Below are positions 18,327 to 61,351 of a stretch of DNA of 64,000 nucleotides, one piece after another. Every line of letters starts with the position of its first letter. Within the stretch, counting starts at the first letter, position 1. Source of the DNA: Eledone cirrhosa (taxonomy: Eukaryota); assembly GCA_964016885.1 (NCBI GenBank), contig OZ024747.1:3596001-3660000 (forward strand). Direction: 5' to 3'. The notes below the pieces were generated by a model that was not told the origin of the DNA, did no database searches, and was given only the letters and a program-made list of their open reading frames with translations. Made by a program: the position numbers and the translations under genes.

Positions 18327-18450
18327 TTTAATATAGAAATGGCTTCTACAGGACTAGAACTGTTTCATTGAAAAGAAATCATGAGGCTTTCCTGATGATT
18401 TCTTTTGAATGAAACAGTTCTAGTCCTGTAGAAGCTATTTCTATATTAAA
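18327..18450. repeat. Fold-back palindrome containing a hammerhead core lacking the 5' strand of stem I
   Basis: Inverted arms of about 55 bp. The right arm reads CTGATGA-tttcttttgaat-GAAAC-agttcta-GTC. Confidence 0.8.
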
Positions 18451-19018
18451 CAATATATATATATGAGAGAAAGAGAAAGGGAGAGAGAGAGGGAGCACAG
18501 AGGGGGAGAGAGAAAGCGAGAGAAAGAGAGCAAAAGAGAGAAAATCTCAAAATAAAAACTAATATTTTTGTAAAAACAAACAATCCAGCCATTTGTGCTT
18601 CAAAGATGAAGGAAATCTTTATATGAAAAACAATAAAATTTTATTTTATTTTCAGATTTCCCAAAATGGTTTTGTATTTTCTCCTACTTCTTTAATAGCA
18701 ATTTAACAGGGACAAAATAATACTCAATGGAAGTATGTCAACTACAGACAACTGACATCATAACGTCTTTAATGTCTACTTTGGTTGGGTCTTATTATGT
18801 ATATATATATATTTAGGTTTGTTGGTTCACCACTGGATAGAACTGGTCATTCCGTATGGTCAACTTTGATGTAATACTATGGAGAGCACTCAACGTAATG
18901 CAACTCACCCGTCTTCGTTTGTTTTGTTGGTGGTGCGAGTACGGAGTTAATTATTATAAAATAACAGGAGGCTGGACAGGTGTAATTCCTTAAAAGGTGT
19001 ATACTATGATCAAATTTT

Positions 19019-19076
19019 ATACTATGATCATTTTAATGACCGGGTTCAGTATGAATCCGGTGACATCATCAGGTAT
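19019..19076 (-). ncRNA. Degenerate type I hammerhead motif (GAAA>AAAA)
   Basis: ATAC-CTGATGA-tgtcaCCGGattca tac tgaacCCGGtcatt-AAAA-TGATCA-TA^GTAT, with palindromic stem III. Confidence 0.6.
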
Positions 19077-19179
19077 TCGAAATATAACAAAGGAATAAAA
19101 TAGACAAACTCCATGGGGCTGAAAAGGCAGAAAGACAACAAGGCGGCCAAACATTTCTAGTCTGGTCGGCTGCCTAATA

Positions 19180-19738
19180 TCATCATCATCACCGTTTTAC
19201 GTCCGTTCTTCCATGCTAGCATGGGTTAGACGGGTTGTCCTGTTGAGGGCAGTGTCTGGTCGGCTGACCATGCCTTGCTCATACAGGAACTGATTCTGGC
19301 TTGATTTCTACAGCTGGATGCCCTTCCTAACACCAACCTCATTTACAGTGAGTGTTGGGTGCTTTTTTGCCGTGGCACCTCCACGACCACTTTGCAGTGG
19401 GAGGGTGTGGGGGCATATTGTCTATATGCTTCAGCTTGTACCCATGGGAGGTCGGGTACTCTGTATTACTGAGTGACGCCAGAGGTCACGGTCATGTGTC
19501 ATTGCCTTTGAGAGGTGTAATTGGGTAAGGTCGGCTTTTATCACCTCATCCCAGGTCTTCTTGGGTCTCCCCACTCCGCGGTTTCAATCGACTTCTAGTG
19601 CTCTGCACCTTTTTATGCAGCTGTCATCCTTCATACGCATCACATGTCCATACCAACGCAACCGCCTCTCCTGCACACAGCATTTGATTCCTCTTATGCT
19701 CAGTCTGTCTCTCAATTCATTTATGCTTTGCCGTTCGG
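19180..19738 (-). mobile_element. 5'-truncated RTE LINE: RT C-terminus plus 3' UTR plus (GAT)n tail
   Basis: Encodes ELRDRLSIRGIKCCVQERRLRWYGHVMRM and GRPKKTWDEVIKADL. The 3' UTR matches the SINE-B tail. Confidence 0.9.
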
Positions 19739-20922
19739 AGCATCCAGGCTTATATATATATATATATAGAGAGAGAGAGATTGGGAGTAACCAGTTTATA
19801 CTAGTAAGACCATGCTCAGTTAAGTACTCAATATATATATATGCATGGCTTGCATGTACGTTCAAACTATTATTGAGTGAGTAATTGAGAGCAACAGAGC
19901 TATATAAATGGTTTTCCTATTGCCTTGGTAACTAAACTAATATATATATATATATATATATATACATGTGTGTGTGTATGAGCATTTTACTTGTCATTTC
20001 TTAATTCCCCAAAAGCTTAAAGCAGTTTTAAGCTTTTGCTAAATGTTTGAACTTAAGTTACCTTATTTAGTACTTACCAAGTTGAGTTGAGTATTTGTCT
20101 TAAATTATGAGAGTCTTAGACAGAAATAAGTTTATCTCTTCAAATATTTTTTGAAATAATTTGTTTTCCCCCCACCTCACACACACACACTCTCCAAAAT
20201 GACAATGACATGTGAACAGCTAAATAGCTGTCCCCCAAAACATATATATATATATATGCTCAGGGCCAGATTTAATGGGTGGCAAAAGGAGCAATTGCCC
20301 CGGGCCCACTGTAGTGGGGAGGTGGAGACACCTATGATGGTAACAGCAATTTATTTGTGCCCTCAGCTGGGCTTTTTAGTTTTAGGATGAGGATCAAACA
20401 CAAAACCCCACAACTGCAAATCTAATTCTCTAACCACACAGCTTCACTAATAGGAACAAATACCACAAGGTATTTTTCTCTGTTTTAATGATTCTACCAA
20501 TTCTTCATCCCAACTTTTTAAATAAAATATTGAAGTTAGGTTTTAATTTAAAGATTCCAGATAAGTTGAGCTGGAAAATACACACATACACACATATATA
20601 CACTCACATTCACACACACACACACACACACACACACACATATATACACACACATGCACTCACATACGCCTACATACTCACTCTCATATGCACACATACA
20701 CATACATTTAAACAAAGAAAAAGAGAAAGAAAGTGATATATATTTGGTTAATTAAAAGCTAAGAGTTTTTTTTATTGATTACCTATAAATTACCCACATT
20801 TGTAAACAACAAGAAAAACAATATATATATATATATGTTCATATATATATATAAATATATATATATATATATATATATATATATATACATATATGTTCAT
20901 ATATATATATATATATATATAT

Positions 20923-58016: not shown

Positions 58017-59889
58017 TATATATATATATATATATATGTGTGTGTGTAATAAAAAATGATAACCACAGCGATACACAATCAATAAGCATTAGTAGGTCCC
58101 CGTTTTTAAAGAAAGAGAGAAAAAATAAGTTGAATGTATTGGGCTTTAGCCCTTCGCCTGGAGAGTACAAGTTGACAGATTATATATAAATTAGAAAGAA
58201 AAAAATGGAAAATAGAAGAAAAGGGACATGTGAGTGTGTGTGGGTTTGTTTTAATCTTTTGTGTATATCACTGTAAAGTGGTCGGGTTGGTGCCACAATA
58301 AAAAGCTCCTAGTGCATATATTTATATATATATATACATAGATATGTATACACACATCATCATCATTGATTAACGTCTATCTTCCACGCCAGCATGGGTT
58401 AGACGGGTTTGTCCCATTCAGAGGCAAGTTGGGTCGAATGACCGTGTCTCGCTCATATAGGAGAGTTTCTGGCTAGTTTTCTACAGCTGGTTGCCCTTCC
58501 TAATGCCAACCACATTGAGAGTGTGGGCTGGGTGTTATATATATATATATAAATACATATACACACATATATTTTATGTATATGTGTATATGTATTTGTG
58601 TGTATATGTATTTATATGTATATGTATTTATATGTATATGTATTTATGTGTACATATACAAAGTCATAGACATATACATTTCTTTATCAAATGAGACACA
58701 ACTAAAGACTCATAAAAAATCTTCCTGAAGCAACGCCTTGGAAAATATATTGTAGTGTTTTTTTGAGTTGCCTACTCCAAGAATTGAACTAAACACTTGG
58801 TAATTATACCATGCTCCTGCCATTTACAACATCGAGTTCTACCTAACCTTGGTGCTTATTTACAGATTGTGAAACTGCTTATAGAAATGTAGAGTGTTTT
58901 GGACAGAAACCTAGGAATGTATTAAATATGAGGTACAAATATTTGATCTCAAAGCATTACACTATTGATTTGCTCAGCTACAACATCCATTGCACATCTT
59001 ATACATAGAAACTGATCAATTTATCTGTCTTCTGATATACAATGGTGTGTGTGTATGTGTATATATATATACACGCAGACAGACAGAAACCATACATACT
59101 CATGCATATATTTCTCTTTCTCTTTATACACACACAGACATGTATATATATATATATATATATATATATAAATAGAGAGAGAGAGGGATAGATAGATACA
59201 CATATACATATATACACACATATACATACATCTATATACACACATATACAAATATATATACATAGAGAGATATATACACATACATGTGCATGCAGAAACC
59301 CACACACATCATCACCGTTTAACGTCCATTCTTCCACGCTAGCATGGGTTACACAGATTGTCCTGTTGTGGGCAATGCCAGGTCAGGTGACCATGTCTTT
59401 CTCATACTGGAACTGATTTTGGCTTGATTTCTACAGCTGGATGTCCTTCCTAACACCAACCTCATTTATAGTGAGTGCTGGACACTTGATGTTGTGACAC
59501 CTACACGACCACCTAACAGTGGGGAGGGGCATACAGTCTATATGCTTCAGCTTCGGCTTGTACTCGTGGGAAGTCATGCCTTCTGTGTTACTGCATAACA
59601 CCAGAGGTCTCGGTTCTGTGTCATCACCTTTGAGATGTGCAATTTGGCAAGGTCAGCTTTTATCACCTCACACACACACACATATATATTCAAAATGTGT
59701 GCGCCCCAATGCCTAAATGCCTGTCAAGTAGTTGGTTCCTATCAATATTGAATAAAATCTGATAAAGTACCCTTGCTACTTCCAGGGGTACTTTATACAA
59801 TTTTGTCACTTCTTTCTTTGCTTTCATGTTGTCATTCACATCGTTGTTTTCTTTTTTTTTTCTTTCCTACTCTCTTTCTTCCTCTCTCT

Positions 59890-59925
59890 ACCATCTGACG
59901 AAGGGCATAACCCAAAATGATACAT
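59890..59925 (+). ncRNA. Decayed minimal hammerhead-like motif
   Basis: CTGACGA-aGGGcataaCCC-AAAA. Stems I and III are not conserved. Confidence 0.35.
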
Positions 59926-59981
59926 ATTGACTTTTGCTCAAATCTTCTCTAGTATTCTGTCTCTTCATTCACTATATATAT

Positions 59982-60210
59982 GTGAAGGTGCATAGCTTAG
60001 TGGTTAGAGGATTGGGCTTGCAATTGAGAAGTTGTGAGTTTGATTCTCGGACTGGGTGATGTGTTGTGTCCTTGAGCAAGACACTTTATTTTTTGTGGTC
60101 CCCCTTTACTCATCTGTAGAAATGAGTTGTGACATCACAGGTGCCAAGTTTACTCAGCTGTAGAAATGAGTTGTGACATCACTGGTGCCAAACTGTATTG
60201 GCCATTGGAT
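59982..60210 (+). mobile_element. SINE B-related 5' part
   Basis: TAGCTTAGTGGTTAGAG...GTGAGTTTGATTCTC...CCTTGAGCAAGACACTTTA. Confidence 0.8.
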
Positions 60211-61228
60211 ATATTGTCAAAGACCAATCACTACTTAATTGAATCTACTGACATTTCAAACAGGCTGAGATGCTGCTTATTGCTTACATGCACTCTCCCA
60301 GTGTACAAAGTACACCTGGTGCACTTTATTGTAGCACCAGTACTAGGGAGGTTGTCATGTCTTCCACACAACTCAAGAATCCTACTAATCCTTTTTTTAG
60401 CAGGTTTTCTCTGGCTGTATGCCCTTACTAACATCAACCAATTTACAAGCTGTAATGGATGCGTTTTCATGTAAATCACTAAAACTAGAGAGGTCATGTG
60501 CCCTTCACATAGCTTCTTCTTCAGTATGAGATTGTTGCTTTCTCAGATTGTTGTTGTTTGCCTGATTGAGATCAAACATCAATGATCAGGTTCCAAGGCC
60601 CACCATGAGGAGATTAATAACTTGGCCCCCTTTACATAGCTGAAATGTTCTCTCAAAGTTTTTTTGTCATATTACCATCATCATCTTCACCATGTAACAT
60701 TTATTTTTGTATGTATATATATATATTTGCATTTATATATGTATATATATATATAGATAGATAACGGTGTTTATACATATATTTTGATATACATCTTCTC
60801 ATCTTTACCCAATTATTCCTGGGAGGGTCACGGGGGCAGAGTCCTCAAACACTCTTTCCAGCAGGCTCTGTCAGAAGCAACTGCATCTCATTGATACAGC
60901 TGGGTCCCCAAGCAAGACAAATCAAGCTCATAGATGTTATCCAGCCCCTGATTCTCCTGCTGTTTGGCTTTGCCCATAAGTCTGCCCAGCGATTCTTTCT
61001 TGAGACATTTTAAGCACATGTCTGTAACAACAGACTTGTGATCTCTCAATTCAGAGAGACTATGATTTCTAACCTAGGGCCTTCTCACTCTTGTTAGAGG
61101 AAACCCTCCCTGGTCGAGGTCTACCACTTTCTGTTTGGTTTTGGTCATGTCAAGGGTGTAACCGTACTCACTATGCTTGGCCAATTGCAGGTTGGTGAGA
61201 ATATATATATATATATATATATATATTT

Positions 61229-61351
61229 ATTTATTATTAGTAGAGATTAAAGTTTAAGCAAAGAATTTCTGATTTCACCCATTACATGATCTTCTGATAG
61301 GGTGAAAGAAGAAATTCTTTGCTTAAACTTTAATCTGTACTAATAATAAAT
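61229..61351. repeat. Palindrome (about 50-bp arms) adjacent to (TA)n
   Basis: AGATTAAAGTTTAAGCAAAGAATTTCT pairs with AGAAATTCTTTGCTTAAACTTTAATCT. Confidence 0.9.

What the first reader, a model, noticed from the sequence alone, without database searches (positions are those of the whole stretch)
18327..61351. Excess of long fold-back palindromes whose centres often fall in or near a hammerhead-like motif
Seen: at least nine hairpins with 35-140-bp arms (18327, 20923, 21978, 24029, 26647, 27079, 45355, 57729, 61229), most abutting (TA)n. In several, the outward-reading arm carries GAAAC-N4-15-GTH (18404, 20994, 24162, 57947). At 18.4 and 21.0 kb the inversion point lies only about 15-20 nt upstream of GAAAC and removes the 5' part of the motif. 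Arm identity ranges from perfect to clearly diverged, so the events span a range of ages. Established: Penelope-like elements often integrate with an inverted, 5'-truncated pLTR. Inference: a shared template-switch or fold-back step near the ribozyme generates these palindromes, and they are a rich source of dsRNA or cruciforms.
Basis: partly seen in the sequence, partly recalled or inferred. Interest (0 to 1): 0.7.

Follow-up and report, generated by a model that had tools for sequence, protein, structure and literature searches.

The report
Head-to-head Penelope stubs meet at cap
Six of the nine hairpins are short back-to-back stubs of Penelope-type jumping genes, a known pattern, and their centres likely mark where the jumping gene's RNA begins, not where its self-cutting ribozyme cuts.

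Summary
All nine hairpins exist (11 found; none in 10 shuffles). They are genome-wide: 90 in 800 kb sampled elsewhere.

Six (18.4, 21.0, 24.1, 45.5, 57.9, 61.3 kb) are head-to-head insertions of Penelope-like (PLE)-type ends beside (TA)n, with a full or partial hammerhead reading outward. The 21.0-kb family is the end of an intact, very young Hydra-type PLE (717-aa ORF, 3531-bp tandem unit). The other three are a SINE hairpin, a MITE and a unique local inversion.

The hammerhead link is real (36 of 90 outward, 3 inward), but the ribozyme is probably a bystander: 1 of 228 arm 5' ends lies at its cut site. Centres cluster at family-specific positions, 29-31 nt behind TATA-like boxes in two families; one carries an extra G like a copied RNA cap (41% versus 15%). 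One arm ends at a long site, the other at a short one. In 19 of 37 pairs the short arm reaches further 5', which fold-back cannot give.

Likely mechanism: both cut target ends prime on one RNA, run to its cap and join. The architecture is published; this scan noted it before on this and other genomes.

The parts
18291..18452 (.). Family P1 head-to-head insertion: long-end arm on the left (tail fragment from 18291), short-end arm on the right into (TA)n; centre about 18388
   Evidence: (544 candidates)
18392..18425 (+). Minimal hammerhead-like motif: CTGATGA core at 18392, GAAAC at 18411, GTC ending at 18425; helices I and III weak
20926..21111 (.). Family P2 head-to-head insertion between (TA)n runs: short-end arm left, long-end arm right; centre 20978 in loop II of the hammerhead; end of an intact Hydra-type PLE
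   Evidence: (718 candidates)
20991..21013 (+). 3' half of a U3-A8 variant hammerhead (GAAAC, stem III, GTC); the 5' half is absent here and present in full elements
21978..22115 (.). Hairpin of a tRNA-like SINE head centred on a short TA-rich run; no hammerhead; origin separate (SINE label by eye)
24024..24279 (.). Family P4 head-to-head insertion: short-end arm left, long-end arm right; centre 24119 cuts inside the CTGACGA core; GAAAC at 24162, GTA ending at 24174
   Evidence: (518 candidates)
26652..26878 (.). MITE-like element: about 90-bp terminal inverted repeats, conserved spacer, TA flanks, moves as a unit; no hammerhead
   Evidence: 2172 candidates; 15 copies share ends and spacer
27078..27158 (.). 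Unique 40-bp local inversion at the edge of an old repeat fragment; no hammerhead, no (TA)n
45259..45650 (.). Family P8 head-to-head insertion: long-end arm left, short-end arm right, both in (TA)n; centre about 45501
   Evidence: (891 candidates)
45546..45596 (+). Complete type I hammerhead motif (8-bp helix I, CTGATGA, helix II, GAAA, ATA site); mirror copy at 45457-45407 on the minus strand
57653..58012 (.). Family P9 head-to-head insertion: long-end arm left, short-end arm right; centre about 57872; hammerhead with long helix II at 57856-57787 (minus), decayed copy on plus
   Evidence: (1624 candidates)
61235..61368 (.). Family P10 head-to-head insertion: short-end arm left, longer arm right; degenerate hammerhead-like motif (fails the strict descriptor); same end follows a Hydra-like ORF in L234 and L245

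Best explanation
Six of the nine hairpins are minimal head-to-head insertions of Penelope-like element ends beside (TA)n, likely made when both cut ends of the target each prime a DNA copy of the start of one element RNA and the two copies are joined where they stop, often at the RNA's predicted capped 5' end. Shown: each family has two fixed 3' ends, one used by each arm; arms point away from each other; 5' ends pile up at a family-specific position; arms of one insertion share diagnostic variants. Inferred: the two 3' ends are reverse-transcription start sites; the pile-up is the transcription start of the pLTR promoter; the extra G is the copied cap; short fillers and microhomologies at the centre come from end joining. 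The hammerhead is near the centre only because promoter, ribozyme and start sites lie within the same 150-300 nt of the pLTR.
For: PLE identity: P2 is the end of a 3531-bp tandem unit with an intact 717-aa ORF and many 100%-identical copies; motifs match the Hydra clade. Geometry in 95 evenly spaced 10-kb stretches plus the window: P2 gives 66 hits, 20 head-to-head pairs, 0 tail-to-tail under that script's rules; all 20 have one short (+86 to +105) and one long (+165 to +183) end; no 5' end reaches upstream of +31, most lie at +39 to +55. Five families, unbiased set: 37 of 39 pairs one long and one short end; short arm reaches over 5 nt further 5' in 19, long arm in 5, level in 13. Either end can carry the ORF-bearing arm (long end in L235, short end in L271). 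1 of 228 arm 5' ends within 5 nt of the predicted cut. P8 cap test: of 321 genome copies with a non-native base before position -64, 133 have G (41%); two bases further on 15 of the first 100 listed of 118 have G; Fisher p = 6e-7. All 24 loci fetched for G are true junctions, none a subfamily variant, and in several (L290, L326, L327) both arms end in the same extra G. TATAAA lies 31 nt before the P8 site and TATTTAAA 29 nt before the P2 site. Arms share variants in 29 of 31 P2 pairs, about 40% expected from the frequencies. Raw reads of three other samples show the two TA-joined ends (L269 4286 and 4366) and strand-switch joints at 4227 and 4229. In vitro a PLE protein cuts and extends both target strands from two internal RNA sites and does not need ribozyme cleavage (PMC11167929). 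An untemplated 5' G is a recognised sign of a copied cap in L1 (PMC9341517).
Against: No RNA 5'-end data were obtained; the start sites are inferred. The G excess was tested genome-wide in one family only, at a position chosen after seeing a few loci; in other families numbers are small (P1 5 of 7, P2 3 of 6, P4 3 of 9, P9 2 of 2). In P8, T is as common as G at that place (about 82 of the first 100 of 188 A/T copies), some G's can come from the opposite arm, and 915 copies keep the native C, so many P8 arms do not stop there. P2 ends spread over about 15 nt and overlap the 3' strand of a predicted hairpin in loop II, so pausing is possible. P1 and P4 lack a clear TATA box at -30. Shared variants fit fold-back or gene conversion equally. 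No ORF was found for P1, P8 or P9 in the fetched loci, and the P4 link is partial. BLAST ends are uncertain by several nt; only 6 of the 19 non-nested pairs differ by more than 40 nt. Search-derived loci are biased by the query and were kept out of the nesting count.
Confidence: 0.7

Rival explanations
1. One cDNA (or an antisense RNA) folds back at its end, primes on itself and copies itself, giving the second arm; the copy stops at a TA microhomology.
For: Arms share variants in 29 of 31 pairs; 18 of 37 unbiased pairs are nested or level; several junctions look like small-loop hairpins, including 45.5 kb in the window.
Against: In 19 of 37 pairs the short-end arm holds sequence missing from the long-end arm, by about 200 nt in P8 loci such as L289, L291 and L298. 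In L271 the short-end arm is a multi-kb tandem. Both arms can end in the terminal extra G. Asymmetric deletion after insertion could rescue some cases but would have to stop repeatedly at the exact start site.
Confidence: 0.15
2. The ribozyme sets the centre, either by cleavage defining the RNA end or by its helices stalling reverse transcriptase.
For: Centres lie within 75 nt of the core in all five mapped families; P1 and P4 ends sit at the start of helix I; P2 ends cover the 3' strand of a predicted loop II hairpin.
Against: Cleavage is excluded by position (1 of 228 ends) and most arms keep the sequence 5' of the cut. Offsets run from -64 to +43. P2 copies pass the stronger helix II. Stalling does not explain an extra G or TATA boxes at -30. 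Ribozyme mutants insert normally in vitro (PMC11167929).
Confidence: 0.12
3. The palindromes are assembly artefacts or chance neighbours of two independent insertions into the same (TA)n.
For: No contig or read laid spans a window palindrome. The SINE pairs at 43.4-44.0 kb and one tail-to-tail P2 pair (L217) may be independent neighbours.
Against: Arms differ by 1-19% and have different, fixed outer ends; no TA lies at the centre of the PLE pairs; orientation is almost always head-to-head; strand-switch joints occur in raw reads of three other samples.
Confidence: 0.03

Closest known systems
EN+ Penelope-like element insertions with an inverted 5'-truncated pLTR and one-sided tail (PMC3846280, PMC8557442)
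   Same: Head-to-head inverted copy, palindrome at the junction, tail on one side only, microsatellite target, hammerhead in the pLTR; opposite-strand hammerhead pairs 100-700 bp apart were reported in PMC4209133.
   Different: Here most insertions are only the two pLTR stubs (100-400 bp), the tail is 45-105 nt instead of 30-40, and the junctions argue against the self-priming explanation offered in PMC3846280.
Hydra clade of PLEs, incl. Hydra-1_Obim (PMC8557442)
   Same: Single ORF of about 700 aa, DKT, CxCX5C linker, no CCHH, CxxC and CxH, (TA)n target, hammerhead; motif-by-motif likeness to Hydra-1_Obim by eye.
   Different: Unit is 3.5 kb with a 1.1-kb 3' UTR; RWR for RWK; U3-A8 hammerhead with long helix II; intact and very young.
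Anole Poseidon PLE in vitro (PMC11167929)
   Same: Two internal reverse-transcription start sites bounding the tail; both target strands cut and extended; ribozyme not needed.
   Different: That work saw no difference in start site between strands and did not address inverted insertions; here each arm uses a different site in 37 of 39 pairs.
L1 twin priming (Ostertag and Kazazian 2001; seen as a reference title in PMC9341517, mechanism recalled)
   Same: Second target end primes internally on the same RNA, giving an inverted 5' part.
   Different: In L1 the internal site varies and the two parts rarely overlap; here both sites are fixed and near the RNA 5' end, so the copies overlap and form a palindrome.

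Membership tests
Hydra-clade PLE (family P2) | Single ORF with RT followed by C-terminal GIY-YIG endonuclease | tested here: met
   717-aa ORF with YRDD and VIYQC..AYIGLT by eye; 2049 relatives, top hit annotated PF01541. Pfam (695-aa copy), NCBIfam and PDB scans gave no hit.
Hydra-clade PLE (family P2) | DKT for DKG, RWK motif | tested here: met
   SDKTGN present; RLRWRT is a near match with R for K
Hydra-clade PLE (family P2) | CxCX5C linker, CCHH absent, CxxC and CxH in the endonuclease | tested here: met
   CNCPDRSIC, CNLC and CKH; no CCHH by eye
Hydra-clade PLE (family P2) | Insertion into (TA)n and hammerhead in the pLTR | tested here: met
   TA follows the long end in 30 of 30 loci and both ends in thousands of raw reads; hammerhead fold
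Hydra-clade PLE (family P2) | RT phylogeny groups with Hydra | not tested
   No tree built; likeness to Hydra-1_Obim read by eye from the supplement
PLE (families P1, P4, P8, P9, P10) | End is joined to a PLE ORF | tested here: inconclusive
   P10 follows a Hydra-like ORF in L234 and L245; P4 tail follows an endonuclease fragment in L245; none found for P1, P8, P9 in 16 extended loci
PLE (families P1, P4, P8, P9) | Two fixed 3' ends (tail) and head-to-head inverted copy | tested here: met
Type I hammerhead ribozyme | Core boxes and three helices | tested here: met
   P8 and P9 pass the descriptor, P1 weakly; full P2 folds into the three helices; P4 and P10 do not pass in the window; no hammerhead among the best 150 of 281 Rfam rows shown
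Type I hammerhead ribozyme | Self-cleavage | not testable with these tools
   Needs an in vitro assay
Non-LTR retrozyme | Head-to-tail arrays of short hammerhead monomers (definition from the abstract of 10.64898/2026.07.22.740005) | tested here: not met
   Window copies are head-to-head pairs; the only tandems found are the 3531-bp coding unit and a 3105-bp host repeat
MITE (26.65 kb) | Terminal inverted repeats, fixed ends and spacer, TA flanks, high copy number | tested here: met
   partner transposase not sought

The most novel reading that the evidence does not exclude
The palindromes are aborted strong-stop products: PLE reverse transcription starts at two sites near the 5' end of a capped RNA, from both ends of the cut target, and runs off the cap; joining the two copies gives the hairpin, while a jump from the cap to the RNA 3' end would give the tandem and full-length copies, as in retroviral strand transfer. 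In family P2 the promoter would lie inside the ribozyme, so a transcript begins with a dead half-ribozyme and only read-through copies can cleave.
Probability: 0.3. Interest if true: 0.6.

Novelty: new member of a known kind. Interest (0 to 1): 0.36.

Why it matters
How PLEs, the closest retroelement relatives of telomerase, make their tandem and inverted insertions is stated as unresolved in PMC8557442 and PMC11167929. This genome holds an intact, very young element and, by extrapolation from the sample, some hundred thousand minimal insertions whose junctions record the steps. They give exact predictions (RNA start, two priming sites, one per target end) that CAGE and an in vitro assay can test. 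The hairpins themselves are not a new kind of element.

Tried and rejected
Unmasked hairpin scan and the repeat finder were swamped by (TA)n. Rfam gave only sub-threshold miRNA-like hairpins in the 150 of 281 rows shown. ARAGORN found no tRNA, so the SINE label rests on appearance. Folding z-scores of four hammerhead regions were not significant (-0.8 to +1.0). The P4 tandem at 3105-bp spacing is a host repeat with a P4 palindrome inside, not a PLE unit. My first clade guess, Neptune, was dropped after reading the Hydra definition. Pfam, NCBIfam and PDB sequence scans did not recognise the ORF; the ESM Atlas did not answer. Sequencing runs: no RNA holder listed, which says nothing on expression. 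Contigs of the best-holding runs do not span the 24.1-kb palindrome, as expected for such contigs. The read pile-up at L269:4233 falls on an AATT and is likely a RAD restriction site; it was not used as evidence for a 5' end. Depth in run X5 was not read as expression. Target-site duplications cannot be read inside (TA)n; empty orthologous sites were not available (no relatives held). Paper searches found no paper that maps PLE palindrome centres to a capped RNA start; the library lacks most subscription papers.
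Full report
Setting. The window is G000:C7:3596001-3660000 of a 3.0-Gb animal genome, rich in (TA)n; nearly half is simple or tandem repeat (30,791 of 64,000 masked). The repeat make-up suggests an octopod; that is my inference.

Observation. With simple repeats masked, self-BLAST finds 11 palindromes with arms of 30 bp or more, including all nine named; ten shuffles give none. 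The same scan on 80 evenly spaced 10-kb stretches finds 90, about 7 per 64 kb, so this is a genome-wide feature. A strict three-helix descriptor gives 13 of 90 outward, 0 inward, control mean 1.3; it finds 81 motifs in the sample against 6-10 in shuffles. The link to hammerheads is real.

The nine are not one thing. 21978 is a hairpin of a SINE head around a TA-rich run. 26652 is a MITE-like unit: 15 copies share ends and spacer. 27078 is a unique local inversion. The other six belong to high-copy families, here P1, P2, P4, P8, P9 (518-1624 candidates, lower bounds) and P10 (57 local hits). Thirty of the 90 sampled palindromes cluster with five of these families; 29 read outward and one is a tail-to-tail neighbour pair.

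Identity. L235 and L269-L272 show that P2 is the end of a 3531-bp tandem unit with an intact 717-aa ORF; the 40 best copies of a 701-bp piece are all listed at 100%. The ORF has the Hydra-clade marks listed in PMC8557442 (section 11 read) and resembles Hydra-1_Obim by eye (supplement rows). Its hammerhead is the U3-A8 variant described in PMC4209133 (passages), with a long helix II. The window copy keeps only the 3' half. P10 follows a similar ORF in two loci, P4 partly in one; no ORF was found for P1, P8 or P9 in 16 extended loci, so their PLE status rests on anatomy.

Anatomy. Positions are counted from the first base of the core. In 95 sampled stretches plus the window, P2 gives 66 hits: 20 head-to-head pairs and 26 solos. 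All 20 pairs have one short end (+86 to +105) and one long end (+165 to +183). No 5' end lies upstream of +31. Over five families in this unbiased set, 37 of 39 pairs have one long and one short end; the short arm reaches more than 5 nt further 5' in 19, the long arm in 5, and 13 are level. Counting also the search-derived loci, 114 of 126 pairs follow the rule, and 1 of 228 arm 5' ends is within 5 nt of the predicted cut. All six window copies have one long and one short arm. Raw RAD reads of three other samples under the same species label show TA behind both P2 ends (2,599-2,925 and 7,398-10,148 reads) and strand-switch joints at the 5' cluster, from one or two start points each. The window hairpins themselves were not bridged.

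Where the centres lie. Modal 5' ends are -64 (P8), -7 to -3 (P1), +39 to +50 (P2), -13 (P4) and about -35 (P9), while the predicted cuts are at +50, +33, +83, +57 and +80. TATA-like boxes lie 31 nt (P8) and 29 nt (P2) upstream. For P8 the base before -64 was counted genome-wide: native C 915, G 133, A or T 188 (82 T and 18 A in the first 100 listed); two bases on, 118 copies have a non-native base, G in 15 of the first 100. G is 41% against 15% (p = 6e-7). All 24 loci fetched for G were real junctions, and several carry the extra G on both arms; 15 of 16 loci fetched for T were junctions too, often into TA or by microhomology. An untemplated 5' G is read as a copied cap in L1 (PMC9341517, passages). 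This is one family, with a position chosen after seeing examples, and no RNA data.

Mechanism. The endonuclease likely cuts (TA)n on both strands; one end primes at the long site, the other at the short site, on the pLTR at the start of the RNA; both copies run towards the cap; the two ends are joined with microhomology or short fillers. Arms share variants in 29 of 31 P2 pairs, so both copies come from one RNA or one source locus. When the long-site copy stops early the result is an L1-type inversion without overlap (for example L013, L014, L289); when both reach the start it is a palindrome. This fits PMC11167929 (parts 1-2 of 4 read): both strands cut and extended, two internal start sites, predicted dimer, ribozyme dispensable. 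It disagrees with that paper's finding of no strand difference in start site, and with self-priming as proposed in PMC3846280 (passages and Discussion read). Pausing at a loop II hairpin remains a rival for P2.

Novelty. Head-to-head pLTR palindromes, tails, (TA)n targeting and opposite-strand hammerhead pairs are published (PMC3846280, PMC8557442, PMC4209133). Of 10.64898/2026.07.22.740005 I saw the abstract start and four passages; its supplements are closed. Six paper searches found no mapping of the centres to a capped start. Earlier scan notes on this and other genomes reached a two-primer reading; I had that reading before looking, took the Hydra lead from them and tested it. What this work adds is the census with controls, an intact source element, and the cap-G count. 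Verdict: real, a known kind, with a testable mechanistic hint; interest 0.36.

Noticed in passing
L269-L272; G000:C1:437198634-437213458: Five tandem 3531-bp units of an intact Hydra-type PLE with near-identical copies on many chromosomes; probably still active.
   Followed up: partly
   Followed up: no
window:44386-44522, 54850-54995, 55335-55430, 54245-54330: Solo or nearly solo arms of families P2 and P10 beside (TA)n; 54850 has a short fold at the usual 5' position.
   Followed up: partly
window:47030-47150 (minus strand): A further hammerhead-like end (CTGATGA ... GAAAT) of another family, seen by eye; similar arms form palindromes in L168 and L197.
   Followed up: no
window:28087-37244, 7525-11725, 41380-43244, 49241-51116: Large tandem arrays: 27-bp unit x329, 30-bp unit x141, 10/20-bp units, and a CCA-rich array; an N gap at about 27871-28070 precedes the first.
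   Followed up: no
window:56010-56790: 3' part of a LINE reverse transcriptase gene (CR1-like by eye), with its tail also at 26170-26400 and elsewhere.
   Followed up: no
L151: A 3105-bp host tandem repeat, each unit carrying one P4 palindrome and a short exon-like ORF; the palindrome was amplified with the array.
   Followed up: partly
L234, L239, L240, L245, L246: Fragments of several other PLE ORFs lie within a few kb of the loci fetched; PLEs seem to cluster in (TA)n-rich spots.
   Followed up: no
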